This document shows, one piece after another, positions 7,001 through 47,158 of a DNA stretch of 64,000 nt. Where the stretch lies: assembly GCA_964508175.1 (NCBI GenBank), contig CAZDRU010000042.1, forward strand, positions 53,261 through 117,260, written 5' to 3'. Both the position numbers and the translations under genes were made by a program. Every line of letters starts with the position of its first letter. The stretch's first letter is position 1. This DNA is from an uncultured Dehalococcoidia bacterium (lineage in GTDB: Bacteria; Chloroflexota; Dehalococcoidia; Lucifugimonadales; CAZDRU01). The notes under the pieces are model-generated. The model was given only the letters and a program-made list of their open reading frames with translations. It searched no databases and was not told the DNA's origin.

Positions 7001-8629
7001 ATGACAGTACAAAAAATTTATCTAGTAGGATTTTCATATACCGGCAAAACTACAATAGGTCGTTTATTGGCAAAACAACTAGGCTGGTTATTCTATGATT
7101 TAGATGAAATGATAGTAAAATTCCACAAAAAATCTATTCCTGAAATATTTAACAATGAAGGAGAAAAAAAATTTCGACTCCTCGAAACAAACGCTTTAAA
7201 AAGAATTTCTAAAGATAAAAACATAGTGGTAGCAACGGGAGGAGGAGCAATAACACAAAAAAATAATCGTGAAATTATGCAAAACGGGTTTACTGTTTGT
7301 CTTGAAGCAAAACCAAAAACAATTTTAACTCGATCTAAAAATAGTCTGGAAACCAAACGTCCATTATTAGAAATTAATCAAAAAAATAGTGAAGTTAAAA
7401 TTAAAACATTAAAAAAGGAACGGCAATTTTTTTATTCATTATCAGATTGTACTGTTCATACAGATAGTTTAGAACCAGAAAAAATAGCAAACGAAATAGA
7501 ACGGTTATTAGATGTATACACTCCAATAATTCAACAATCTAATAATACAATACCAGTACGTCATAAACATGGAAGTTACAATATTGATGTAGTATCGAAT
7601 AATATCCCGAGATTAATAAATAAATTGCAATCGATGAACCATTCAAAAATATTCATCATTACTGATACAAATGTTTGGAATGCTTTAGGCAAAAAAATTC
7701 AAAACGCTTTTGATAGCGCAAATATTCCCTTCCATCTTTTCGAAGTTAAACCTGGAGAAAAAACAAAAAATTTACAAACTGTAGAATATCTTTATGATGG
7801 ACTCATAAAAGCACAAGCTGAAAGAAATGATACTCTTATTGCCTTCGGAGGAGGAGTAATAGGCGATCTTGCGGGATTCGTCGCAGCAACATTTATGAGA
7901 GGAATTCGTTTTGTAAATGTGCCTACTAGCCTTACTGCAATGGTAGATTCATCTATTGGAGGAAAAGTAGGAATTAACTTAAATATTGCGAAAAACATGG
8001 TAGGATCATTTTATCAACCTTATTTTGTTTTCAACGATATTTCATTCCTTCAAACTCTTGGCGAAAGAGAAATTTCTGAAGGATGGGCAGAAGCAATAAA
8101 ACACGCTATTATTTTAGATCCTTCATTATTTAAAATATTTCAAAATAATATATCAAAAGTAAAAAATTTAGACGAAATATTAATTAAAGACTTAATTATA
8201 AAAAGCATACAAATTAAAGCTAAAATTGTCTCTGAAGACGAATTTGAAAAAAGAAATAGGAGAATTCTGTTAAATTTTGGACATACTATCGGACACGCTT
8301 TAGAAGCTGAAGGAAATTTTGGAACTTATTTACATGGAGAAGCAGTATCAATAGGAATGATAGGAGCTTTATTAATTTCTAAAAAACTTGGATTAGTATC
8401 AAAAGAAATATTGCAATCAATTTCCGAACTCTTGGAATCATATAATTTGCCAATAAAAATTAAAAATTTGAAAACTCAAAATATATTCAATAGATTAAAA
8501 CATGATAAAAAAATGGAAAAAGGATCTCTTAAATGGGTTCTATTAAAGGATCTAGGAAAAACAATTATTAAACAAAATATTCCCGAAACAATTATTATTG
8601 ATTCAATAGAAAAACTAGTACAAAAATAA
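7001..8629 (+). CDS. aroK/aroB: Bifunctional shikimate kinase / 3-dehydroquinate synthase fusion
   Basis: N-terminal P-loop GFSYTGKTTIG with a shikimate-kinase-like ~170 aa. C-terminal DHQ synthase motifs GGGVIGDLAGFVAATFMRGIRFVNVPTSLTAMVDSSIGGKVGIN, GHTIGHALE, HGEAVSIGM. Confidence 0.9.
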   Translation: MTVQKIYLVGFSYTGKTTIGRLLAKQLGWLFYDLDEMIVKFHKKSIPEIFNNEGEKKFRLLETNALKRISKDKNIVVATGGGAITQKNNREIMQNGFTVCLEAKPKTILTRSKNSLETKRPLLEINQKNSEVKIKTLKKERQFFYSLSDCTVHTDSLEPEKIANEIERLLDVYTPIIQQSNNTIPVRHKHGSYNIDVVSNNIPRLINKLQSMNHSKIFIITDTNVWNALGKKIQNAFDSANIPFHLFEVKPGEKTKNLQTVEYLYDGLIKAQAERNDTLIAFGGGVIGDLAGFVAATFMRGIRFVNVPTSLTAMVDSSIGGKVGINLNIAKNMVGSFYQPYFVFNDISFLQTLGEREISEGWAEAIKHAIILDPSLFKIFQNNISKVKNLDEILIKDLIIKSIQIKAKIVSEDEFEKRNRRILLNFGHTIGHALEAEGNFGTYLHGEAVSIGMIGALLISKKLGLVSKEILQSISELLESYNLPIKIKNLKTQNIFNRLKHDKKMEKGSLKWVLLKDLGKTIIKQNIPETIIIDSIEKLVQK

Positions 8630-8642
8630 ATCAGAATACGTA

Positions 8643-9410
8643 TTAATTTTTATCTGCAAAATTAATTACTGATGGAACAATCGCAGAAATTGCTGCCAAT
8701 ATCACTATTCCTAAAGCAAGTAATCGAAAATATTTTTCATTGATAAGGTTAACTAATTTCATTGATATTAAGAAACCCGCAATAAGCGCTGGCAATAATT
8801 TCAAATCAAGTATCATCGTATTTTGAGTAACTGTTCCTGAACTTAAAAGAGCAATCAACCCAAAAACATGCAGAATTAAAAGAAAACATGCAACAATTCT
8901 ACGAAATTCAAGCTTAGGAATTTTCATAGCAGTCAAATATAAAATAACTAATGGCCCGGATAAACTTGTGCTTGTCACTAACACGCCACTTGCAAATCCA
9001 ACAATGATATCCTTAAATATACCTCGTTTAATCTTAATGTTTTTAGGCAAGAAAACTATAATGCTAGCAAAAAAAAGAATAATAATACCTATAAGTATTT
9101 TTAATATATCTGGGTCACTATTCAATAAAACAAAAATTCCTACAGGTATTCCTACTAATCCACTTAAACCTAAAATTAATACCTTATTAAAAACAGGACG
9201 TTCTCGATTCCAAAATATAACGCCAATATTCACTATAGTAGTCAATGGAAGCAAAATTGCGACAGCTTTTTGAGGTTCAAAAAAAAGAAGTATTAAAGGT
9301 GTTGCTATTAGATTAAAGCCAAATGCAGTGGTACCTTTTATAATAGAACTTATGAAAACAACACTAAGAAAAAATATTAATACCGATAAAGGCAAATCAT
9401 TAATATTCAA
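8643..9410 (-). CDS. TauE/SafE-family (sulfite-exporter-like) anion permease, TTG start
   Basis: 255 aa with 7-8 hydrophobic helices. N-terminal helix IKGTTAFGFNLIATPLILLF resembles the TauE family. GAGGA lies 8 nt upstream of the TTG. Confidence 0.5.
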   Translation of the reverse strand: MNINDLPLSVLIFFLSVVFISSIIKGTTAFGFNLIATPLILLFFEPQKAVAILLPLTTIVNIGVIFWNRERPVFNKVLILGLSGLVGIPVGIFVLLNSDPDILKILIGIIILFFASIIVFLPKNIKIKRGIFKDIIVGFASGVLVTSTSLSGPLVILYLTAMKIPKLEFRRIVACFLLILHVFGLIALLSSGTVTQNTMILDLKLLPALIAGFLISMKLVNLINEKYFRLLALGIVILAAISAIVPSVINFADKN

Positions 9411-9515
9411 AATAATATCCTCATAATACTTAGTTTCATTTTAAATGAAAAGATATTTATAATAAATTCAAAACATTGATATTTTATCTTTGGATAACTC
9501 ATATTGAATAATAAT

Positions 9516-10667
9516 ATGGAAAAACATTTCGAAATAACCAAGAAAAACGGGAAAATTAGAACCGGAATATTACATACTTCTCATGGAAGTATAGAAACCC
9601 CTGCTTTCGCTCCAACTGCTACTATAGGTGTTATGAAAAGCCTTCTACCTACAGAAGTCATTGAATGTAATGTCCCAATGTTACTAGCTAATCTATATCA
9701 TCTTTATTTACGTCCTGGAATTAATTTAATTGAAAATTTTGGAGGCTTACATAAATTCATGAAATGGGAACGCCCAATTTTAACAGATAGTGGAGGATTT
9801 CAAGCATTCAGCTTATCAAATCTTGTAAAACTAAATAATAGTGGAATTACTTTTCGTTCTCATATTGATGGAACAAGTCATTTATTCACACCTAAAAAAG
9901 CATATGAATATCAAAAAAGATTAGGTTCTGATATTATAATGTGCCTTGATCACTGTGTCTCATTTCAAACGAATAAAACAGAATTAGAAATGGCTGTCGA
10001 TAGAACAAGTAAATGGGCACAAATCACTCGCGATTTACATTCATCAACAACACAAAAACTATTTGGAATAATACAAGGAGGAACTTCTAAAGAACTCCGT
10101 ATTAAATCAACAAAAGTTATGTTGGATTTAAATTTTGATGGATATGCAATAGGAGGATTAGCTGTAGGAGAACCTAAAAAAACTATGTATTCAATGTTAG
10201 ATCATATAATTCCTGCTTTGCCCGAAAAAAAACCACGCTATCTAATGGGAGTAGGAGCTCCAGATAATCTCGTTGAAGGAGTTGCAAGAGGAATAGATTT
10301 ATTCGATTGTGCACTTCCTTCTCGAGTAGCTCGAACAGGTGCAATTTTTACCTGGGAAAAGAGAATTAATATTCTGAAAAAAGAATTCAAAGATCTAGAT
10401 GTTCCATTAATAGATAATTGTAAATGTATTGCATGCAAAAATTTTCCTATTGCATACATCCATCACTTATTTAAAATAAATGATCCTCTGGGATTGCGAT
10501 TAGCAACTATACATAATCTAGTGTTTATTCAAGAATTAATGAATAAAATAAGAAAATCTATTCATGAAGAAAATTTTCTTGAATTTAAAAAAGAATTTCT
10601 AAAAAATTACACTCCCCCAAATGAAGAAGCTCGACTAAGTTTTATACAAAAGAAAAAATTATTATAA
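9516..10667 (+). CDS. tgt: Queuine tRNA-ribosyltransferase
   Basis: TPAFAPTAT, LTDSGGFQ, YAIGGLAVGE, zinc motif CKCIACKNF...H. The ATG at 9516 is preferred over the TTG at 9504. Confidence 0.95.
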   Translation: MEKHFEITKKNGKIRTGILHTSHGSIETPAFAPTATIGVMKSLLPTEVIECNVPMLLANLYHLYLRPGINLIENFGGLHKFMKWERPILTDSGGFQAFSLSNLVKLNNSGITFRSHIDGTSHLFTPKKAYEYQKRLGSDIIMCLDHCVSFQTNKTELEMAVDRTSKWAQITRDLHSSTTQKLFGIIQGGTSKELRIKSTKVMLDLNFDGYAIGGLAVGEPKKTMYSMLDHIIPALPEKKPRYLMGVGAPDNLVEGVARGIDLFDCALPSRVARTGAIFTWEKRINILKKEFKDLDVPLIDNCKCIACKNFPIAYIHHLFKINDPLGLRLATIHNLVFIQELMNKIRKSIHEENFLEFKKEFLKNYTPPNEEARLSFIQKKKLL

Positions 10668-10682
10668 AAAATCTAATCAGTA

Positions 10683-10958
10683 TCATCCACCAGCAACAGC
10701 TGGAACAATACTTACTTCATCTCGAGATTCTGTAACAGTTTCTAATCCATTAAGAAAACGAATATCTTCTCCATTAAGATATATATTAATAAATTCTTTT
10801 AATTTACCTTCATCATCTAATAATCGATTTTTGAAACCTTCAAACTGCTTATCTAAATTATCAATAAGTTCTCCAATCGAAGCTGCTTCTATTTCTGCTT
10901 TATCTTGTCCCTGAGTTATTTTACGCAATGGCGTAGGTATTCTCACAAGAATAGTCAT
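10683..10958 (-). CDS. CysO/MoaD/ThiS-family sulfur-carrier protein ending in Gly-Gly
   Basis: 91 aa. IPTPLRKITQGQ, FINIYLNGEDIRF, C-terminus SIVPAVAGG followed directly by the stop. Closely resembles my recollection of M. tuberculosis CysO. Confidence 0.85.
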   Translation of the reverse strand: MTILVRIPTPLRKITQGQDKAEIEAASIGELIDNLDKQFEGFKNRLLDDEGKLKEFINIYLNGEDIRFLNGLETVTESRDEVSIVPAVAGG

Positions 10959-10991
10959 AAAAGAATTCCCTCCTCATTTTTAATACTAACT

Positions 10992-11234
10992 TTATCCTGC
11001 AATAACATCTCCCTGAATAGGCTCTACTATGACTCCCTCTTCCTTCATCCAATTTAAGCCTTTCTCTATTTCGGCTTCCGTTCCTTCTAATTCAAGAACA
11101 ACCCAACCTAAAGAATCATGAATTTCTGCCCTTCTAATATTAGTAACAATATCAAAAGATTTTCCTAAATAATATATTACCGGTTTTTGAATTAATTTGG
11201 TAGAAAATGTAAATTTAACTTTTCTGGCAACCAT
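10992..11234 (-). CDS. Stand-alone NIL-domain protein
   Basis: 80 aa. The pattern VKFTFSTKLIQKPVIYYL...NIRRAEI...GWVVLELEGTEAEIEKGLNWMKEEGVIVE matches the NIL (MetN C-terminal-like) ferredoxin-fold domain. Confidence 0.7.
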   Translation of the reverse strand: MVARKVKFTFSTKLIQKPVIYYLGKSFDIVTNIRRAEIHDSLGWVVLELEGTEAEIEKGLNWMKEEGVIVEPIQGDVIAG

Positions 11235-11244
11235 AATTCCTCCT

Positions 11245-12474
11245 CTACGTTAATTTACTATATATATTTTCAAATTCCGAAAATGTAGGAGAGATTTCTA
11301 TAGGGTTTACTACAGACTCAACTACTTCTTGTGTTTTCAATCCATTCCCCGTTATAAAAGCAATAACGCTTTCAGATTTTTTAATGCGTTTTTCTTTAAC
11401 TAAATTTTGCAATGACGAAATAACTACTCCTCCAGCTGTTTCAGTAAAAATTCCTTCAGTTTCTGCTAAGAGTTTTATCCCTTCACTTATTTCAGATTCT
11501 GGGACAGCAATAGCACTTCCATCAGATTCTTTAATAAGTTTTAAAGCATAAATTCCATCAGCAGGATTGCCGATAGCAAGAGAATGTGCAACCGTATTCG
11601 GTTTTACTGGAATAATTTGAGGAGATTTTTCATTCCATGCTGATACTATTGGAGAACATCCTTCAGGCTGAGCAAGATGCATATGAGTATTTACTTTACC
11701 ATTCAATAAACCGAGATCATAAAATTCCTCAAAACCTTTCCAAATTTTAGTATATAAAGCACCAGAAGCAGCTGGAACAACTGCATGATCTGGAGTTTGC
11801 CAACCAAATTGTTCTGCAGCTTCAAAGCCCAAAGTTTTACTTCCTTCTGCATAATAAGGTCTCATATTTATATTCACAAATGCCCATTTATAATTATCGG
11901 CAATTTCACTACATAATCTATTTACATCATCATAAGTTCCATTAACTGAAACTAACGTAGCCCCATATATAGCTGCCCCAATAATTTTCCCTTTTTCTAA
12001 ATTTGATGGAATAAAAACAACGCCTCTCATTCCTCCTCTAGATGCGTGTGCACCAACAGAACCAGCTAGATTTCCTGTAGAAGCACAGGCTAATGTATCA
12101 ATGTTGAATTCTTTAGCTTTTGTTGCAGCCACAGAAACCACTCTGTCTTTAAATGAATAAGAAGGATTAACACTATCATTTTTTAAATATAAATTATCTA
12201 ATCCAAGAATTTTTCCTAAATTCTTAGCATGTAACAATGGGGTAAAACCTGCCTGAAGATCAACTACATGTTCATAAGAACTAGGCAATAGATCTTTATA
12301 TCTCCAAATACTTAGCGGACCTTCAATAATTCTTTGACGAGAAATTATCTCTTTGATTTTCTTAAAATCATATTCAACATCGAGAGGGCCAAAACAATAA
12401 TCACAAACATTTATTGGACTTATTGGAAACTCTGAACGGCATTCACGACAAATAAGAAATTTTGTAAAAGTCAT
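11245..12474 (-). CDS. Threonine-synthase-like fold-type II PLP enzyme with N-terminal zinc ribbon
   Basis: CRECRSEF...CDYCFGPL ribbon. PLP-lysine motif NPSYSFKDR. GNLAGSVGAHA. Glycine-rich loop region. 409 aa. Confidence 0.85.
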   Translation of the reverse strand: MTFTKFLICRECRSEFPISPINVCDYCFGPLDVEYDFKKIKEIISRQRIIEGPLSIWRYKDLLPSSYEHVVDLQAGFTPLLHAKNLGKILGLDNLYLKNDSVNPSYSFKDRVVSVAATKAKEFNIDTLACASTGNLAGSVGAHASRGGMRGVVFIPSNLEKGKIIGAAIYGATLVSVNGTYDDVNRLCSEIADNYKWAFVNINMRPYYAEGSKTLGFEAAEQFGWQTPDHAVVPAASGALYTKIWKGFEEFYDLGLLNGKVNTHMHLAQPEGCSPIVSAWNEKSPQIIPVKPNTVAHSLAIGNPADGIYALKLIKESDGSAIAVPESEISEGIKLLAETEGIFTETAGGVVISSLQNLVKEKRIKKSESVIAFITGNGLKTQEVVESVVNPIEISPTFSEFENIYSKLT

Positions 12475-12684
12475 TTATTTTGTATTTTTACCTTAAGAAT
12501 AAAACTATCTGAAACTGTAATGAATATGAAATAATCGTAACAATGATACTTTTAGGTTGTCAATAGCAACTAAATGTCAATTAATTAATAATTTTTGAAA
12601 ATATCTATTAACATTTTTGTTGTTTTGAAATAATATATGTTGGTTTGCATAATATATTTGAACATTTATGAATAAAATAAAAAC

Positions 12685-13710
12685 ATGGGAAAATTAATCA
12701 ATTTAAACCGGAAATTAAATTTTGATGAAGTGCTAATAATTCCATCCGCTTCAGATATTAATTCACGAAATGATATTAATTTAATCAATTCATATAAATT
12801 GCCTATTTCGGGAATCAATTGGACTGGAATACCTATAATTGCTTCAAATATGGACTATGTTGGAACTTTGGATATGGCAAATATTCTCCAAGAAAAAAAA
12901 TTACTTACTGCCCTAACCAAATTTCATAAACAATCAGATTTAATTAATGCTTTAAATAATAAAGTTGATATAAACTATGCCTTACCCACATTTGGAATAG
13001 ACACTCCCAAAAATATCATAAATTTTATATCTAATTTAATAATAGAAAGTAACACCGAAAATTTAATAGTTGTCTTTGATATAGCTAACGGGTATATCAA
13101 AACATTTCATAAACTCATTAAAGAAATTCGAAAAGAACTGCCAAAACTTGGAATATTTGCAGGCAATATAGTAACAGGAGAAGGAGTAAAACTCTTAGCT
13201 GATGCAGGAGTCGATGCAGTAAAAATTGGAATTGGTTCTGGTTCAGTATGTACAACTTCCTCCATTACGGGAATTGGATATCCCCAATTATCTGCAATAT
13301 TAGATTGTTCAGAAACAATAAAAAAAGAAGGAATTTTATCTATTTCTGATGGAGGCATTAAAGTAATCGGTGATATAGCTAAAGCTTATGTAGCAGGAGC
13401 AGATTTTGTAATGATTGGAGGATTACTAGCTGGACATACTGAAGGAAACGCACCAACAGTAATAAAAAACAATGTTTTATTTCACAAATACCATGGAATG
13501 AGCTCACAAGATGCAATGGAATTACATTACGAAACTGTTCCTAAATATAGAACTGCTGAAGGAGTATCTAAATTAATAAAAGATAAAGGAAATGTTTCAA
13601 CAACTATCGAGGCTATATTAGGAGGTTTACGATCAACCTGTTCCTATGTAAATGCAAAAAATATCAGAGAACTTTCAGAAAAAGGAAATTTCATTAGAAT
13701 CACCTCTTAA
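12685..13710 (+). CDS. guaC: GMP reductase
   Basis: LNFDEVLIIPSASDINSRNDI...WTGIPIIASNMDYVGT, GIGSGSVCTT, GGIKVIGDIAKA. Length and N-terminus resemble E. coli GuaC, with no CBS insertion. Confidence 0.85.
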   Translation: MGKLINLNRKLNFDEVLIIPSASDINSRNDINLINSYKLPISGINWTGIPIIASNMDYVGTLDMANILQEKKLLTALTKFHKQSDLINALNNKVDINYALPTFGIDTPKNIINFISNLIIESNTENLIVVFDIANGYIKTFHKLIKEIRKELPKLGIFAGNIVTGEGVKLLADAGVDAVKIGIGSGSVCTTSSITGIGYPQLSAILDCSETIKKEGILSISDGGIKVIGDIAKAYVAGADFVMIGGLLAGHTEGNAPTVIKNNVLFHKYHGMSSQDAMELHYETVPKYRTAEGVSKLIKDKGNVSTTIEAILGGLRSTCSYVNAKNIRELSEKGNFIRITS

Positions 13711-24243: not shown

Positions 24244-25167
24244 ATGTTAGGAAAAGACACCTTCCTGCAATTACTTTTAATTGCTATTGCTGGAGGATTC
24301 ACAGCAACTATATTCTTCTGGTTATCTTTTATTGTAATAAGTTTCAAAATAACAAAATATCGTAATCTTGCTCCCATTACAGTGATACTAATACTCACTG
24401 GTTCTATAATTGGAACAGTATTATCGTTTATATTATTTATAAGTTTTTGGGAAAACACTTTAACTCAACAAATTTCTGTTTTTATTGTTAGTATTATATT
24501 AACTAGTTTTGGCATGAGTATTGGACTACTTACAAGTAAACGCATTGAGAAAAACCAAGGAAATCAATTAGATACAGGTCGTAGTTGCGTTGTAGATACA
24601 AGCGCAATAATTGATGGACGTATAGCAGATTTACTTGATACAGGCTTTGTTCGTTATCATTTTTATATCCCAACATTCATTCTTGACGAACTTCGACATA
24701 TAGCTGATTCGGCCGACCCATTAAGAAGAACGAGAGGAAAACGTGGATTAGAAGTACTAGTTCTATTACAAAAAAATAATTTTATTAAAACAACAATTCT
24801 AGAAGCAGAAATTCAACAAAATGAAGATGTAGATCGTACACTCATCAATTTAGCAAAAAAAATTGATGCTGCAATTTTAACTACAGACTTTAATCTTAAT
24901 AGAATAGCTACATTACAAAATATATTAGTATTGAATATAAATGAAGTAGCAAATTCTGTAAAAACTGTCTTACTGCCAGGTGAAGAATTTACAGTCCAAG
25001 TTGTTCAACCAGGCAAAGAATCTGATCAAGGATTAGCATACTTAGATGATGGAACAATGATTGTAGTTGAAAATGGAATTCAATTTTTAAATACATCAAT
25101 AAAAATCATTGTGAGTAGAGTAATTCAAACTGCTACAGGAAAAATAATATTTGCAAAACTTCCTTAA
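24244..25167 (+). CDS. yacL: Membrane-anchored PIN + TRAM domain protein (YacL-like)
   Basis: Four N-terminal TM helices, PIN motif VVDTSAIIDGRI...ILTTDFNL, C-terminal TRAM-like GEEFTVQVVQPGKESDQGLAYLDDGTMIVV. Sits upstream of ispD-ispF as in Bacillus. Confidence 0.8.
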   Translation: MLGKDTFLQLLLIAIAGGFTATIFFWLSFIVISFKITKYRNLAPITVILILTGSIIGTVLSFILFISFWENTLTQQISVFIVSIILTSFGMSIGLLTSKRIEKNQGNQLDTGRSCVVDTSAIIDGRIADLLDTGFVRYHFYIPTFILDELRHIADSADPLRRTRGKRGLEVLVLLQKNNFIKTTILEAEIQQNEDVDRTLINLAKKIDAAILTTDFNLNRIATLQNILVLNINEVANSVKTVLLPGEEFTVQVVQPGKESDQGLAYLDDGTMIVVENGIQFLNTSIKIIVSRVIQTATGKIIFAKLP

Positions 25168-32197: not shown

Positions 32198-32641
32198 TTA
32201 TTCAATATAACCAATTTTTAAAACAGGCCATATTCGCATAGGAAATCTTCCAACTATTTGTTCGAATAATATAGGTCCAAAATGCCTACTATCAGTACTA
32301 TATTTATGAAAATCTCCACAAACAAAATATTGGTTGCTTGTTAATTTCCATGATTTTTTGATTTCCTTATTTGAATAATAATCATTAATTGGCAATTCCG
32401 AAGACTTAATTCCGTCAATAAAAATTTGGCCATTTTTTACCTGGACATTATCACCAGGCAAACCAACAATTCTTTTTATAAGCAAAGATCTGCTAGAATT
32501 TTTTCTTTTCAATATTACTATTTCGTTTCGATTCAATTCGTCTTTAGTATAGTTATACGTACTAAATAAAAGAACATCTCCATTTTTTATAACTGGAAAC
32601 ATACTCGAACCACGAACAATAATAATTTTCATACGTATCAA
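32198..32641 (-). CDS. sodX: S26-family signal-peptidase-like protease, probable NiSOD maturation protease
   Basis: Ser motif RGSSMFPVI, Lys motif LIKRIVGLPGD, no TM anchor. Immediately downstream of sodN. Confidence 0.65.
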   Translation of the reverse strand: MIRMKIIIVRGSSMFPVIKNGDVLLFSTYNYTKDELNRNEIVILKRKNSSRSLLIKRIVGLPGDNVQVKNGQIFIDGIKSSELPINDYYSNKEIKKSWKLTSNQYFVCGDFHKYSTDSRHFGPILFEQIVGRFPMRIWPVLKIGYIE

Positions 32642-32676: not shown

Positions 32677-33156
32677 TTAAGCAGTATAAATTAAGGAGCC
32701 TCCTCCAGTTTGATTTGAATCATTTTCAACTGTTTTAACTCCTTTGGTGTCCCAGAATATCTTAGAAATTTCTTTTACTGAAACAAGTAGATCTTCTGCA
32801 GCTGCTTTATTAATTTCTTGACGAACTTTGGAGGCTGCTTTCATGGCATTCCAAAAATGCGTGTGGAGATCCGGATGTTTTTCTAAATGTTCTGGTTTAA
32901 AATAATCTCCCCAAATAATTCTTAATTCTTGCTTACATAATTCAGCAGATTCTTCTTTAACTGCAATATATCTTGATAATTTAGCATCCTTACCTGCTGA
33001 ATCAAGATCTTCAATTAATTGATTCATTCTAACTGTTGTCAATGCTGCTATTTGAGCTAAATGTGGATCATAAATCCCACAGGGAATATCACAGTGTGCA
33101 TAAGCAAATTCTGGAATAACTTTTTTAATAGCTTTTTTAATATTTGTTATATTCAT
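32677..33156 (-). CDS. sodN: Nickel superoxide dismutase precursor
   Basis: 20-aa leader MNITNIKKAIKKVIPEFAYA followed by the Ni-hook HCDIPCGIYDP. Four-helix-bundle-sized body (159 aa). Confidence 0.9.
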   Translation of the reverse strand: MNITNIKKAIKKVIPEFAYAHCDIPCGIYDPHLAQIAALTTVRMNQLIEDLDSAGKDAKLSRYIAVKEESAELCKQELRIIWGDYFKPEHLEKHPDLHTHFWNAMKAASKVRQEINKAAAEDLLVSVKEISKIFWDTKGVKTVENDSNQTGGGSLIYTA

Positions 33157-35976: not shown

Positions 35977-37509
35977 ATGAGTAATGTTATAAATCCACTA
36001 GTAAGTCAACTATTTTTAGACAATCATGTTATTGAAGAAACTTCAAGAGTAAAAAAAATAATTCATAGTCCCCATAAATATTACAACAATCCTCTCTATA
36101 AAGCAGGAGCATCTTGGGAAGGGACTAGTATACACTATCTTGGCGGTGTCCATTTTGACAAAAAAGAAGGCATCCTAAAAGCATGGTATGCCGTTCTTAG
36201 TCCCTCTAAACATCCTGAAATTAAACATGCTGTTTGTATGATTACTTCGACAGACGGTATTCATTGGGAAAGACCAGAACTCGATGTATACAAAACTAGT
36301 GATGGACAATGGACCAATATAGTACTTCTTATTACACATGGTGGTGGAACAGGAGCTCCAACTATCATTTATGAACCTGAAAACACTGAAGAACCATGGA
36401 CTATGGTTCTTAGCACTACCGACGGAGAAGGTAATTGGGACTATAAAGGCTATATACTTCGTTCACCTGATGGAATTCACTGGAGATGGACTGTAAGTCA
36501 TCCAAACGGCATTAATCATAAAATGCACGACCGTTCAGCTGCGGTTAAATCTGATAATAAACAATTCCCATATACTATTATAAGTAGAGGAAGTGAAGAT
36601 CTCAGAAAATGGAAATTTGTCAGAAGTGCTCATCGTGTTGGTATTAACGAAAATGAAAAAGATGGCGATCCTACACGTGTCGTTATTCCAGATTTTCTAG
36701 ATAATCCTGAAGCTCAAGTTTATCATTGCAGTGCCTTTAAATATAACGATTTATATATTGGCACCATATATTGGTTCTGGGAATTTGATAATCCAATCGG
36801 GAACATGGAACTCATTACCAGTAGAGATACAATACACTGGGAACGAGTTGAACCCCGAACAATTTTCCTTGATCATACTCCTGAAGGAGCTAAGGTAGGG
36901 GCATTTGATAGTTATCGTGTTGAATTATCTCTTTCTGCACCGCTTGGATATAAAGAAGGAACTTTCATGAATCTTAATGAAAGTTCACTTAACTATTCCC
37001 AATTTTCTGACGCAAGTCCAAAACAAGACTCTTTGTGGTTTTACTATCTTGGTGGGCCAATTTGTCATCCTGGCCCTGATACTACTGGCCACGTAACTTC
37101 TATGTTACAACTTGGTCTTGCTGAACTCAGAGTCGATGGTTTCTGTGGATTGAGAGCTACAAAATTCCCTGGCTACATTTTTACCAAACCCATGATTTGG
37201 CCTGGTGGAGAATTAGAATTAAATCTCTCTGATCTTGGCGGCGGAGGAAATGGAAATATTAAAACTGAAGTTCTGACTGATACAATGGAAGTTATTGATG
37301 GATTTACAGCTGAAAACTCAAACAATTTAAGCAGAAGTGGTATTCAAACATGGAACGGAAAAAGTCTGAATGAATTACGTGGCAAAAATATCCGTTTTAA
37401 ATTTTGTCTTTCCAATGCTGAGCTTTTTAGTTTTAAGTCACACGGAGGAAAACCACTTATAGAAAAAAAACCAAACCCCAAAATAGAACATATGCAACTA
37501 TTCAATTAA
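35977..37509 (+). CDS. Asp-box/BNR-like beta-propeller protein, possibly glycosidase-like. Function unknown.
   Basis: Three S/T-x-D-(G/T)-I-H-W-(E/R) repeats (STDGIHWERP, SPDGIHWRWT, SRDTIHWERV). No signal peptide. GGGAG RBS 25 nt after the upstream gene. Confidence 0.35.
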   Translation: MSNVINPLVSQLFLDNHVIEETSRVKKIIHSPHKYYNNPLYKAGASWEGTSIHYLGGVHFDKKEGILKAWYAVLSPSKHPEIKHAVCMITSTDGIHWERPELDVYKTSDGQWTNIVLLITHGGGTGAPTIIYEPENTEEPWTMVLSTTDGEGNWDYKGYILRSPDGIHWRWTVSHPNGINHKMHDRSAAVKSDNKQFPYTIISRGSEDLRKWKFVRSAHRVGINENEKDGDPTRVVIPDFLDNPEAQVYHCSAFKYNDLYIGTIYWFWEFDNPIGNMELITSRDTIHWERVEPRTIFLDHTPEGAKVGAFDSYRVELSLSAPLGYKEGTFMNLNESSLNYSQFSDASPKQDSLWFYYLGGPICHPGPDTTGHVTSMLQLGLAELRVDGFCGLRATKFPGYIFTKPMIWPGGELELNLSDLGGGGNGNIKTEVLTDTMEVIDGFTAENSNNLSRSGIQTWNGKSLNELRGKNIRFKFCLSNAELFSFKSHGGKPLIEKKPNPKIEHMQLFN

Positions 37510-45682: not shown

Positions 45683-47158
45683 ATGATTCTCAAACATATA
45701 TTAGTCAATAAATTTTTTCGAGTTGGTTTTTTAATATCAATATTTTTATTAATCTTTACTATATTAGATATACAACTTATTTCTGCACATGGATTTGGTG
45801 AACGTTATGATTTGCCGGTTCCTTTAAATTTATATTTACTAGGATCCGCTATAACAATTTTACTCTCTTTCTTAATCATCGCTGCTTTCTTCAAAGTTAA
45901 CACACAAAAAAAACCATTAGCCATTTATATCCCAATCCCCAAAACAGTTTTCTTTTCTTTAAAATCAATATTAAGCACTATATTTTTATTAATCTTTTTT
46001 CTTTTTATCATATCTGGATTTATTGGAAATCCACTTCCATTAAGAAATGTCGCACCAATACTGTTGTGGATAATGCTTTGGATTGGAACAATGTTTGTTT
46101 CAAGTATGATTTTTAATCTTTGGCCCACTATAAATCCATGGAAAACAATGTTTGAAATATTAGAAAAAATAATTAAGAAAACACTAACTAAAAAGAATAT
46201 TTCAAGCTTAAATTTCGAATATCCCAAAAAACTTGGAATGTGGCCCGGTGTAATATTACTATTCTTGTTTGTCTGGATAGAAAATGTTCATCCAGCTTCA
46301 TCTTCTCCCAGATTACTAGCAATGCTTGCTACTCTTTACTCTTTATTAACTTTGACTGGAATGTTTTATTTTGGCAAAAATATTTGGTTAAAAAATGCAG
46401 AATTTTTTTCAATATTTTTCCATTTTGTATCACGATTCTCTCCTTTACATATTAGTGAAAATTTACCTAAAAACACTCCGAAAAATAAACTAATTATTGA
46501 AATAACATTATATGGTTCGAAAGTAATTAGTAGCACAATCAACTCTTTCAGTAAATTATGTTTTATACTCCTCATGTTATCTGCTATAACCTTTGATGGA
46601 TTAAAAGAAACACCTATATGGAATACAATTGATTCCTTTGCATATCAAATACATCCACAATTAACACCTGCTCCAATAAAATCTTTAGGTTTATTAGGTA
46701 CATTTTTAGGTTTCACCTCAATGTATTTTGTCTTTTCATGGATAATGAAACAATTTGCTCAAACTTCTCTCAACCCCGAAGATATTGCTAAACTTTTTGC
46801 GACTTCTTTACTTCCTATTGCTATTGGGTATCATATTGCTCATTATTTCACTTATTTAATAATTCAAGGACAAATCTTAATATTATTAATATCTGATCCT
46901 TTTGGTTTTGACTGGAATCTTTTTGGAACTGCTGACTATACAATAAATATTTCTATTTTGAACGCTAAATTTGCATGGTTTCTAGGAATTAGTGCAATTG
47001 TAATAGGACATATTTTTGCTGTAATTATTGCGCATGTAATAGCATTAAATAATTTCAACAAAAACCAAGCTTTAAAAAGTCAATATCCGATGTTAATTTT
47101 AATGATTCTTTACACAATTTTTAGTTTATGGATAATAGCACAGCCAATAGTTGCTTAA
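45683..47158 (+). CDS. Polytopic (~12 TM) membrane protein of unrecognised family
   Basis: Signal-like N-terminus ending ...QLISA|HGFGERYDLPVPLNLY. Paired His motifs in late helices (IGYHIAHYFTY, VIGHIFAVIIAHV). Starts 9 nt after the lipoprotein gene. Confidence 0.7.
   Translation: MILKHILVNKFFRVGFLISIFLLIFTILDIQLISAHGFGERYDLPVPLNLYLLGSAITILLSFLIIAAFFKVNTQKKPLAIYIPIPKTVFFSLKSILSTIFLLIFFLFIISGFIGNPLPLRNVAPILLWIMLWIGTMFVSSMIFNLWPTINPWKTMFEILEKIIKKTLTKKNISSLNFEYPKKLGMWPGVILLFLFVWIENVHPASSSPRLLAMLATLYSLLTLTGMFYFGKNIWLKNAEFFSIFFHFVSRFSPLHISENLPKNTPKNKLIIEITLYGSKVISSTINSFSKLCFILLMLSAITFDGLKETPIWNTIDSFAYQIHPQLTPAPIKSLGLLGTFLGFTSMYFVFSWIMKQFAQTSLNPEDIAKLFATSLLPIAIGYHIAHYFTYLIIQGQILILLISDPFGFDWNLFGTADYTINISILNAKFAWFLGISAIVIGHIFAVIIAHVIALNNFNKNQALKSQYPMLILMILYTIFSLWIIAQPIVA

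What the first reader, a model, noticed from the sequence alone, without database searches (positions are those of the whole stretch)
10683..12474. CysO-like sulfur carrier + stand-alone NIL domain + Zn-ribbon ThrC-like PLP enzyme: candidate protein-thiocarboxylate route to homocysteine
Three minus-strand genes are packed with 10- and 33-nt gaps.
- The 91-aa protein is strongly CysO/MoaD-like. It ends ...SIVPAVAGG directly at the stop, so it is ready for C-terminal thiocarboxylation without trimming.
- The 409-aa protein is a threonine-synthase-type fold-II PLP enzyme (SFKDR lysine motif) with an N-terminal CxxC...CxxC ribbon.
- Between them lies an 80-aa free-standing NIL domain. This fold binds methionine in the MetN regulatory domain. 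It also occurs in the methanogen protein required for sulfide-dependent homocysteine synthesis.

Threonine synthase acts on O-phosphohomoserine. In M. tuberculosis, CysM and CysO make cysteine from O-phosphoserine plus CysO-thiocarboxylate. By analogy, this trio could make homocysteine from O-phosphohomoserine. I recall a ThrC-homologue/sulfur-carrier pair of this sort (MetM/MetO) being described in Streptomyces. A dedicated NIL partner is not explained by that scheme, so its role (methionine sensing or sulfur relay) is open.
Basis: partly seen in the sequence, partly recalled or inferred. Interest (0 to 1): 0.6.

Follow-up and report, generated by a model that had tools for sequence, protein, structure and literature searches.

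The report
MetM/MetO homocysteine operon with NIL partner
These three genes are a member of the recently described MetM/MetO route that makes the methionine precursor homocysteine from O-phosphohomoserine using a sulfur-carrying protein, and they carry a small extra NIL protein, probably a methionine sensor, that I found described in no paper I could search.

Summary
Three minus-strand genes, separated by 10 and 33 nt, encode:
- a ThrC-type PLP enzyme with an N-terminal zinc ribbon (409 aa);
- a free-standing NIL domain (80 aa);
- a CysO-like sulfur carrier ending ...AVAGG-stop (91 aa).

It is the MetM/MetO thiocarboxylate route from O-phosphohomoserine to homocysteine (Hasebe 2024; in GapMind 2026).
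- The 409-aa protein falls in a clade whose members nearly always sit beside a MetO gene.
- That clade is separate from canonical ThrC (33-40% identity).
- Two relatives' loci also encode a canonical ThrC.
- 14 of 48 homologous loci carry a SAM riboswitch directly upstream.

The NIL gene is the part not described in any paper I could search.
- It occurs in 36 of 80 species-level MetM loci.
- It takes four forms: M-N-O (Chloroflexota), M-O-N (Nitrospirota, with E1 and JAMM genes), a MetO~NIL fusion with the GG internal (four phyla), and M-N without MetO.
- 75 of 75 testable metagenomic NIL genes follow a MetM gene.
- It has no conserved Cys.
- It models onto the methionine-binding MetN C2 domain and keeps the Asn and Ala that match MetN N295 and A299.

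Most likely it is a methionine-sensing regulatory subunit. This is inferred, not shown.

Verdict: a new variant of a known kind, of moderate interest.

The parts
11245..12474 (-). metM homologue: a ThrC-type fold-II PLP enzyme (409 aa) with an N-terminal CxxC...CxxC zinc ribbon and PLP lysine K109 (SFKDR). Predicted MetO-thiocarboxylate-dependent homocysteine synthase acting on O-phosphohomoserine.
   Evidence: - PALP E 2.4e-67; TIGR00260 270 bits, NF006050 291.6 bits against a cut-off of 303.
- In a neighbour-joining tree it sits in the MetO-linked clade, apart from canonical ThrC.
- About 25 clade-specific invariant differences from ThrC.
- Homologues carry SAM riboswitches upstream.
10992..11234 (-). 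Free-standing NIL-domain protein (80 aa, no Cys). Conserved motifs: VKFTF, VTNIRRA, GWVVLELEG. Proposed methionine-sensing regulatory subunit of the MetM system.
   Evidence: - Pfam NIL 52.8 bits.
- 30 invariant columns among 25 homologues.
- AF2 model pLDDT 84.9; best fold match is the MetN C2 domain, 3tuz, TM 0.82, rmsd 1.1 A.
- N32 and A36 align with MetN N295 and A299.
- 75 of 75 testable metagenomic homologues lie directly after a MetM gene.
10683..10958 (-). metO homologue: a CysO/MoaD-type beta-grasp sulfur-carrier protein (91 aa) ending ...AVAGG at the stop, so no C-terminal trimming is needed.
   Evidence: - ThiS PF02597 53.3 bits.
- CysO 3dwg E 2e-18 and 4n6e E 7e-19.
- 74 of 140 homologues also end GG-stop.
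12475..12684 (-). 210-nt upstream intergenic region (shared with the divergent GMP-reductase-like gene). It has a promoter-like TTGACA-18-TACGAT site at 12563-12534 and no riboswitch.
   Evidence: - No Rfam match at gathering threshold in the window.
- Only chance-level matches at E <= 10 in 12400-12760.
- The promoter-like site comes from a consensus scan only.

Best explanation
The three genes form an operon for homocysteine synthesis by the MetM/MetO route.

Proposed steps:
1. MetO (91 aa) is adenylated at its free C-terminal Gly-Gly and converted to a thiocarboxylate. The enzyme is an E1 of the ThiF/MoeZ type, encoded elsewhere in this genome.
2. MetM (409 aa, PLP on K109) eliminates phosphate from O-phospho-L-homoserine.
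3. MetM adds the MetO thiocarboxylate sulfur at C-gamma, instead of adding water at C-beta as ThrC does.
4. Release of the carrier yields L-homocysteine, which is then methylated to methionine.

The 80-aa NIL protein is an accessory third subunit. Most likely it is an ACT-like ligand sensor that binds L-methionine, as the homologous MetN C2 domain does, and feeds back on MetM activity.

Basis:
- Shown elsewhere: the MetM/MetO chemistry in S. albulus, known to me only through secondary summaries.
- Shown here: homology, clade membership, conserved gene linkage, riboswitch association, the NIL fold and conservation of the Asn.
- Inferred: activity of this particular enzyme, the identity of the E1, and the whole NIL mechanism.

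My confidence is about 0.85 for the pathway assignment and about 0.45 for NIL as a methionine-sensing regulator.
For: Pathway:
- MetM/MetO is described as a thiocarboxylate route from O-phosphohomoserine to homocysteine, and MetM is said to be commonly misannotated as ThrC.
- S. albulus metM has a SAM riboswitch, and a cyanobacterial homologue is 51.6% identical to it.
- The window protein is 52-59% identical to homologues in Cyanobacteria, Actinomycetota, Nitrospirota and Aquificaceae, and 33-40% identical to solved ThrCs.
- The tree separates the two clades.
- L037 and L078 carry a canonical ThrC (61-65% identical to solved ThrCs) within a few kb of the MetM homologue.
- A MetO homologue lies next to MetM in about 70 of 80 genome loci.
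- Nitrospirota loci read ThiF-MetM-MetO-NIL-ThiF-JAMM.
- L171 reads Rrf2-MetM-ThiS~NIL-rhodanese-rhodanese/ThiF-JAB.
- A ThiF-PALP fusion exists, P0343.
- A SAM-I riboswitch lies directly upstream of the metM homologue in 14 of 48 loci, from four named phyla.

NIL:
- It is present in 36 of 80 genome loci, in four arrangements.
- 75 of 75 testable metagenomic NIL genes follow a MetM gene.
- The MetO~NIL fusion is a common architecture: the 120 best hits are all 170-179 aa with both domains.
- Its fold matches the MetN C2 domain; the top hit is the SeMet-bound form.
- N32 is present in over 90% of sequences and A36 is invariant. They align with MetN N295 and A299.
- The N295A mutation abolishes L-Met binding in MetN (PMC6233128).
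- The NIL domain of the methanogen homocysteine synthase subunit MA1822 is treated as a methionine-binding regulatory domain (PMC12068725).
- NIL has no conserved Cys.
- NIL-less loci L014 and L017 nest within the NIL-containing Dehalococcoidia clade, so NIL is dispensable for catalysis.
- NIL persists beside MetM in loci that lack MetO.
Against: - No enzyme assay exists for this clade outside Streptomyces. The Microcystis homologue did not behave as a full MetM in vivo.
- The S. albulus MetM sequence itself was not available, so orthology is inferred through intermediates.
- No E1, JAMM, homoserine kinase or methionine synthase gene lies in the 64-kb window.
- The window has no SAM riboswitch.
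- By NCBI's HMM the protein passes the thrC equivalog cut-off.
- For NIL there are no binding data.
- N32 is replaced by S or D in three Nitrospirota sequences.
- Fusion to MetO, rather than to MetM, fits a carrier-docking role as well as a regulatory one.
- Six loci have both NIL and a SAM riboswitch, so NIL is not simply a substitute for riboswitch control.
Confidence: 0.8

Rival explanations
1. NIL is a structural docking or assembly partner for the sulfur carrier. It would be comparable to MoaE for MoaD: it holds or presents MetO (or its thiocarboxylate) to MetM or to the E1, rather than sensing methionine.
For: - MetO~NIL single-chain fusions occur in four phyla and in 120 of the 120 best database hits.
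- NIL directly follows MetO in Nitrospirota.
- JAMM genes lie next to or near three of the four fusion loci and in L171. This parallels MoaD-MoaE fusions that must be cleaved after GG; those papers were listed but not read in detail.
Against: - NIL stays beside MetM in loci that lack MetO altogether.
- The characterised Streptomyces system and all 25 cyanobacterial loci work or exist without NIL.
- NIL was lost within NIL-containing Dehalococcoidia with little change in MetM.
- The AF2 model of the fusion shows two independent domains: pTM 0.51, with a disordered linker at the GG. This evidence is weak because the alignment is shallow.
Confidence: 0.2
2. The 409-aa protein is an ordinary threonine synthase, and the two small genes serve another thiocarboxylate pathway such as Moco, thiamin or tRNA thiolation.
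For: - TIGR00260 thrC scores 270 bits against a cut-off of 167.
- Database names for homologues read 'threonine synthase'.
Against: - It belongs to a clade separate from solved ThrCs.
- The ThrC-invariant motif NPxR(I/L)EGQKT is replaced by N(M/L)RPYYAEGSKT, along with about 25 other clade-specific changes.
- Canonical ThrC genes coexist with it in L037 and L078.
- SAM riboswitches, not threonine controls, lie upstream of 14 homologues.
- GapMind states that MetM is often misannotated as ThrC.
Confidence: 0.04
3. The trio makes cysteine, like CysM/CysO of M. tuberculosis, from O-phosphoserine plus the carrier thiocarboxylate.
For: The carrier's best solved relatives are CysO proteins.
Against: - The PLP enzyme is ThrC-like, not CysK/CysM-like: cysteine synthase A scores 30 bits against 270 for thrC.
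- Regulation is by SAM riboswitch.
- The characterised homologue makes homocysteine.
Confidence: 0.04
4. NIL is a sulfur-relay (persulfide) carrier feeding MetO or MetM.
For: - NIL occurs in the methanogen sulfide-dependent homocysteine system.
- Cysteine desulfurase and MOSC genes lie next to M-N loci.
Against: The window protein has no cysteine, and no cysteine is conserved in the family.
Confidence: 0.02

Closest known systems
MetM/MetO of Streptomyces albulus (Hasebe et al. 2024, Appl Environ Microbiol 90:e01247-24). I know it only through GapMind 2026 and PMC12172450.
   Same: - A ThrC-homologous PLP enzyme sits beside a MoaD/CysO-type carrier.
- The substrate logic is the same: O-phosphohomoserine plus carrier thiocarboxylate gives homocysteine.
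- Actinobacterial members of the same clade are 54% identical to the window protein and carry SAM riboswitches, as reported for S. albulus.
   Different: - A conserved NIL gene is inserted between metM and metO.
- The window has no riboswitch.
- MetO ends at GG, so no Mec/JAMM trimming is needed.
- The E1 is not linked.
- No biochemistry exists for this lineage.
C2 (NIL) regulatory domain of the methionine importer ATPase MetN (PDB 3dhw, 3tuz, 6cvl)
   Same: - Same Pfam family and the same beta-alpha-beta-beta-alpha-beta fold (TM 0.82, rmsd 1.1 A).
- The Asn that hydrogen-bonds L-Met (N295) and the interface Ala (A299) are conserved.
   Different: - It is free-standing, not fused to an ABC ATPase.
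- Sequence identity is only about 20%.
- The partner is a biosynthetic enzyme, not a transporter.
- The ligand is untested.
NIL-ferredoxin subunit MA1822 of the L-aspartate-semialdehyde sulfurtransferase (DUF39/COG1900 homocysteine pathway of methanogens and Desulfovibrio)
   Same: A NIL domain is recruited to a non-canonical homocysteine synthase, with a presumed methionine-responsive role.
   Different: - There is no ferredoxin domain and no Cys.
- The catalytic partner is unrelated: a PLP ThrC-like enzyme rather than COG1900.
- The substrate differs: O-phosphohomoserine rather than aspartate semialdehyde.
CysM/CysO/Mec/MoeZ of M. tuberculosis and HcyS/HcyF/HcyD/MetY of Wolinella succinogenes
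   Same: - A protein thiocarboxylate is the sulfur donor to a PLP enzyme.
- E1 and JAMM partners are found in related loci.
   Different: - The PLP enzyme is ThrC-type, not CysM- or MetY-type.
- NIL has no counterpart in those systems.
Cleaved sulfur-carrier fusions (MoaD-MoaE/MoaX; ubiquitin-like precursors processed by JAMM/Rpn11)
   Same: In related loci MetO is made as a MetO~NIL chain with an internal GG, and a JAB/JAMM gene lies nearby.
   Different: - The window's genes are separate.
- Cleavage of MetO~NIL is inferred, not shown.
- NIL is not an enzyme subunit of known activity.

Membership tests
MetM/MetO thiocarboxylate-dependent homocysteine synthesis | MetM: a ThrC-homologous fold-II PLP enzyme with the PLP lysine | tested here: met
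   PALP E 2.4e-67; SFKDR with K109; ThrC structures match at E 3e-61 or weaker.
MetM/MetO thiocarboxylate-dependent homocysteine synthesis | MetM groups with characterised MetM rather than with canonical ThrC | tested here: inconclusive
   The tree puts it in the MetO-linked clade with actinobacterial (54% identity) and cyanobacterial (52%) members, apart from solved ThrCs (33-40%). The S. albulus sequence itself was not available. The link is indirect: Microcystis is 51.6% identical to S. albulus MetM.
MetM/MetO thiocarboxylate-dependent homocysteine synthesis | MetO: an adjacent MoaD/ThiS-type carrier with C-terminal Gly-Gly | tested here: met
   PF02597 53.3 bits; CysO at E 2e-18; ends AVAGG-stop; lies 286 nt downstream of metM with NIL in between.
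MetM/MetO thiocarboxylate-dependent homocysteine synthesis | An E1 (MoeZ/ThiF) loads sulfur on MetO | not testable with these tools
   None lies in the 64-kb window, and the rest of the genome is not available. E1 genes are adjacent in Nitrospirota, L025, L040, L086 and L171.
MetM/MetO thiocarboxylate-dependent homocysteine synthesis | Methionine-related regulation (SAM riboswitch, as in S. albulus) | tested here: not met
   There is no riboswitch in the window. However, 14 of 48 homologous loci have RF00162 directly upstream. This feature supports the family's function but does not define membership.
MetM/MetO thiocarboxylate-dependent homocysteine synthesis | Homocysteine is formed from O-phosphohomoserine plus MetO-COSH | not testable with these tools
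   Needs an enzyme assay.
Canonical threonine synthase (ThrC, TIGR00260) | Scores above the equivalog cut-off and clusters with characterised ThrC | tested here: not met
   The HMM score passes (270 against 167.1). But the tree places it outside the ThrC clade, and the ThrC-invariant NPxRxEGQKT motif is changed. NF006050 scores 291.6, below its cut-off of 303.
NIL domain (PF09383) / MetN C2 regulatory domain | Pfam match, ferredoxin-like fold, conserved Asn of the N-I-x motif | tested here: met
   52.8 bits against 24; TM 0.82 to 3tuz; N32 aligns with N295.
NIL domain (PF09383) / MetN C2 regulatory domain | Fused to a MetN ABC ATPase | tested here: not met
   It is an 80-aa stand-alone ORF; TIGR02314 MetN scores 19.5 bits against a cut-off of 499.7.
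NIL domain (PF09383) / MetN C2 regulatory domain | Binds L-methionine | not testable with these tools
   Needs ITC or a crystal soak.
NIL-ferredoxin subunit of L-ASST (MA1822 type) | NIL fused to a 4Fe-4S ferredoxin domain and partnered with COG1900/DUF39 | tested here: not met
   The 80-aa protein has no Cys. No Fer4 or DUF39 gene lies in the window.
CysM/CysO cysteine synthesis | CysK/CysM-type PLP partner using O-phosphoserine | tested here: not met
   Cysteine synthase A NF007989 scores 30 bits against a cut-off of 387; the best models are thrC.

The most novel reading that the evidence does not exclude
The free-standing NIL protein is a dedicated methionine-sensing subunit. It gates a protein-thiocarboxylate homocysteine synthase at the protein level. 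In several phyla it is made as a ubiquitin-like MetO~NIL polyprotein that a JAMM protease must cut at the internal Gly-Gly, which would couple carrier maturation to regulator release. On this reading, two unrelated homocysteine synthases (the COG1900 L-ASST and the ThrC-like MetM) and the methionine importer have each independently recruited the same sensor module.
Probability: 0.35. Interest if true: 0.6.

Novelty: new variant of a known kind. Interest (0 to 1): 0.5.

Why it matters
- The MetM/MetO route fills methionine-pathway 'gaps' in many uncultured lineages, including marine Dehalococcoidia/SAR202, Nitrospirota and Aquificaceae. Its enzyme is routinely mislabelled as threonine synthase, which distorts auxotrophy predictions.
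- Recognising NIL as a recurrent third component gives a concrete and cheap hypothesis for how this route is controlled.
- It may also show what the NIL domain does in the methanogen homocysteine synthase, a role that is still unresolved.
- The MetO~NIL fusions add a bacterial example of a sulfur carrier made as a precursor with a functional C-terminal passenger.

Tried and rejected
- Riboswitch: I looked for a SAM riboswitch or any other Rfam element upstream of the window operon and found none.
- Primary paper: I tried to read Hasebe et al. 2024 by DOI and by PMC id; it is not held. What I say about S. albulus is therefore second-hand.
- MoaD-related 1v8c: I suspected the 168-aa T. thermophilus protein of carrying a C-terminal NIL domain. 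A NIL profile search of the PDB found only MetN C2 domains.
- P0004: I suspected this 481-aa homologue of being a MetM-NIL fusion. It is only an over-extended N-terminus.
- L093 and L099: these apparent MetM-NIL fusions are out-of-frame stop-free ORFs in high-GC DNA.
- Longer ThrC-like representatives carry LeuA_dimer, PadR or ThiF domains, not NIL.
- Earlier surveys: two Aravind-group surveys of ThiS/MoaD neighbourhoods mention neither ThrC nor NIL.
The scan actually run therefore samples mainly the Chloroflexota-type NIL.
- NIL versus riboswitch: I tested whether the two are alternatives. Riboswitches occur in 6 of 32 NIL-containing loci and 8 of 16 NIL-less loci (Fisher p = 0.04).
- Fusion model: the AF2 model of the MetO~NIL fusion gave no confident domain interface, pTM 0.51.
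Full report
**1. Observation**

- 11245-12474, 409 aa;
- 10992-11234, 80 aa;
- 10683-10958, 91 aa.

They are separated by 10 and 33 nt. AGGAGG-type ribosome-binding sites precede the second and third genes.

Pfam assigns them to PALP (E 2.4e-67), NIL (52.8 bits) and ThiS/MoaD (53.3 bits). NCBIfam's best models for the large protein are threonine synthases: TIGR00260 at 270 bits, and NF006050 at 291.6 bits, just under its cut-off of 303.

- the SFKDR lysine motif;
- the CxxC...CxxC ribbon;
- the carrier's ...AVAGG-stop terminus.

The carrier's best solved relatives are CysO proteins: 3dwg at E 2e-18 and 4n6e at E 7e-19.

The window is about 31% G+C. Its closest named relatives are Dehalococcoidia and SAR202 MAGs. 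The same locus occurs on many marine metagenome contigs.

**2. What the enzyme-carrier pair is**

[quoted passage not shown] 2024)'. Its components are MetO, Mec, MoeZ and MetM. [quoted passage not shown]
- PMC12172450 adds that S. albulus metM has a SAM riboswitch and that a Microcystis homologue, adjacent to a MetO-like gene, is 51.6% identical to MetM.
- I could not obtain the primary paper.

A profile of the window protein and diverse relatives retrieved 80 species-level genome loci, 52-66% identical to it.

Neighbour analysis:
- A MetO homologue lies immediately downstream in about 70 of the 80 loci, across at least nine phyla.
- The lineages include Chloroflexota, Nitrospirota, Cyanobacteria, Actinomycetota, Planctomycetota, Omnitrophota, Sumerlaeota and Syntrophaceae.
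- In Nitrospirota the cluster reads ThiF(E1)-MetM-MetO-NIL-ThiF-JAMM.
- A locus found through a fusion protein reads Rrf2-MetM-ThiS~NIL-rhodanese-rhodanese/ThiF-JAB.
- One database protein is a ThiF-PALP fusion.

Relationship to canonical ThrC:
- A distance tree puts the window protein inside the MetO-linked clade. The four solved ThrCs lie in a separate clade.
- That ThrC clade also holds second, ThrC-like genes found within a few kb of the MetM homologue in L037 and L078. These are 61-65% identical to solved ThrCs and only 31-34% identical to the window protein.
- About 25 positions are invariant in the MetM clade and differ from ThrC invariants. For example, ThrC's NPxR(I/L)EGQKT becomes N(M/L)RPYYAEGSKT.
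- From memory only: the Arg in that ThrC motif contacts the substrate phosphate.

Regulation:
- A SAM-I riboswitch (RF00162, 62-92 bits) lies directly upstream of the metM homologue in 14 of 48 loci scanned.
- These loci come from Chloroflexota, Actinomycetota, Sumerlaeota and Dormibacterota.
- This is independent evidence that the clade serves methionine, not threonine, synthesis.
- The window itself has no riboswitch.

**3. The NIL gene**

The 80-aa protein belongs to a tightly conserved family. Thirty of 80 columns are invariant among 25 homologues, with motifs VKFTF, VTNIRRA and GWVVLELEG.

*Distribution among the 80 MetM loci*

| Group | Arrangement | Loci |
|---|---|---|
| Chloroflexota | MetM-NIL-MetO (as in the window) | 20 |
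| Chloroflexota | MetM-NIL, no MetO | 2 |
| Chloroflexota | no NIL | 11 |
| Nitrospirota (9) plus one unclassified genome | MetM-MetO-NIL | 10 |
| Syntrophaceae, Omnitrophota, Planctomycetia, Sumerlaeota | MetO and NIL in one ORF | 4 |
| Cyanobacteria | no NIL | 25 |
| Actinomycetota | no NIL | 3 |

The remaining five loci have no detected NIL: L038 (Aquificaceae), L071 (unclassified, cyanobacteria-like) and L083 (Dormibacterota), plus two that are cut off just downstream of the MetM gene (L056, L073), so NIL presence could not be tested there.

NIL is therefore present in 36 of the 80 loci.

*The fusions*
- The order is MetO, then ...AIAGG, then a variable linker, then NIL, so the Gly-Gly is internal.
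- The fusion is a common natural architecture. The 120 best database hits to one fusion are all 170-179 aa and carry both Pfam domains.
- JAB/JAMM genes lie next to or near three of the four fusion loci and in L171.
- An AF2 model shows two folded domains joined by a low-confidence linker at the GG (pTM 0.51).
- By analogy with other sulfur-carrier precursors, this fits cleavage after GG. Cleavage is inferred, not shown.

*The NIL-centred view*
- I scanned metagenomes with the NIL profile.
- All 75 NIL genes with enough upstream sequence follow a MetM gene.
- MetO follows directly in 62 of 71 testable cases, and a little further downstream in one more.
- In the remaining cases NIL is followed by sulfur-mobilisation genes: a NifS-like desulfurase, a MOSC protein, or MnmA.
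- This family of NIL proteins is therefore dedicated to MetM. It is not a general methionine-binding protein.

*What NIL probably does*
- The AF2 model (pLDDT 84.9, beta-alpha-beta-beta-alpha-beta) matches the MetN C2 domain best. The top hit is the selenomethionine-bound 3tuz (TM 0.82, rmsd 1.1 A). ACT domains of serine-inhibited PGDH come next.
- In profile alignment, N32 and A36 of the VTNIRRA motif align with MetN N295 and A299.
- In MetN, N295 hydrogen-bonds L-Met bound to the other C2 domain, N295A abolishes Met binding, and A299 lies on the interface strand that shifts register (PMC6233128).
- A36 is invariant. N32 is present in over 90% of sequences across all four arrangements, but is S or D in three Nitrospirota sequences.
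- No cysteine is conserved, which argues against a persulfide relay.
- NIL-less Dehalococcoidia loci nest among NIL-containing ones with short branches, and the characterised Streptomyces system has no NIL component listed. NIL is therefore accessory, not catalytic.
- A recent paper treats the NIL domain of the methanogen homocysteine-synthase subunit MA1822 as a methionine-binding allosteric module (PMC12068725).

The best-supported reading is that NIL is a methionine-responsive regulatory subunit of MetM-type homocysteine synthase, at about 0.45. The main rival is a MetO-docking or assembly role, suggested by the fusions, at about 0.2.

NIL and SAM riboswitches are not mutually exclusive: six loci have both. 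The apparent negative association (6 of 32 against 8 of 16, p = 0.04) is not phylogenetically controlled.

**4. What could not be established**

- The window holds no E1, JAMM, homoserine kinase, methionine synthase, conventional homocysteine-pathway gene or second thrC. The rest of the genome is unknown.
- No biochemistry exists for this lineage. The only tested cyanobacterial homologue did not clearly act as MetM in vivo.
- The S. albulus sequence was not compared directly.

**5. Novelty and score**

- The enzyme-carrier pair is a new member of a known pathway.
- 'NIL domain' appears in only six held papers, and none connects it to MetM/MetO. GapMind's description of the pathway does not mention it.
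- A caveat: the primary MetM/MetO paper could not be read.
- I rate the finding a new variant of a known kind, with interest 0.5. It would not astonish a specialist. It does give a clear, quickly testable hypothesis about regulation of a newly found methionine route and about the unresolved role of NIL in homocysteine synthases.

Noticed in passing
L141:854-2026, L164:4244-5410, L165:4207-5415; also L102, L121, L128, L135, L051: MetM-NIL loci that lack MetO carry other sulfur-mobilisation genes right after NIL. These are a NifS-like cysteine desulfurase (followed by an AIR-synthase-like protein and a MOSC protein), a BadF/BcrA-type ATPase plus MOSC, or MnmA plus MOSC. They were recognised by eye from sequence motifs, not by profile search. 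This may be an alternative sulfur supply to MetM.
   Followed up: partly
L033 (MetO ORF 7307-8347), L167, L168: Some MetO homologues continue after the Gly-Gly into long non-NIL extensions: 164 aa in L033 and 116 aa in L167/L168. About half of all MetO homologues have 1-7 extra residues after GG, and the other half (like the window's) end at GG.
   Followed up: no
P0332, P0372, P0384; P0322, P0325, P0368, P0382; P0343: More distant zinc-ribbon ThrC-like proteins (34-39% identity) are fused C-terminally to a LeuA allosteric domain or to a PadR winged helix. One protein, 47% identical to the window protein, is a ThiF(E1)-PALP fusion.
   Followed up: partly
L037:2564-3691 and L078:2138-3265; L037:7116-7542: Canonical ThrC genes (61-65% identical to solved ThrCs) lie within a few kb of the MetM homologue in a Chloroflexi genome and a Nitrospirota genome. 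In L037 a T-box leader follows the metO gene.
   Followed up: partly
window 9504-10667 (tgt) and 8643-9410 (TauE/SafE): A tRNA-guanine transglycosylase gene, convergent with the operon, is conserved next to it in at least 14 Dehalococcoidia loci. A TauE/SafE-family membrane-protein gene is conserved nearby in about 9. This is probably synteny rather than a functional link.
   Followed up: partly
window 7001-8629: A single 542-aa ORF fuses shikimate kinase to 3-dehydroquinate synthase. It lies within an aroE-aroC-aroK/aroB cluster.
   Followed up: no
window 32677-33156 and 32198-32641: A nickel superoxide dismutase (Sod_Ni) gene sits beside an S26-type peptidase gene, presumably its maturation protease.
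   Followed up: no
window 35977-37509, 45683-47158, 24244-25167: Three sizeable ORFs (510, 491 and 307 aa) have no Pfam match at E <= 0.001.
   Followed up: no
window 12534-12600: The region upstream of the operon contains two TTGACA hexamers 11 nt apart (ttgacatttagttgctattgacaacc). One forms a promoter-like site with TACGAT. This could be a promoter plus an operator, but it is untested.
   Followed up: no
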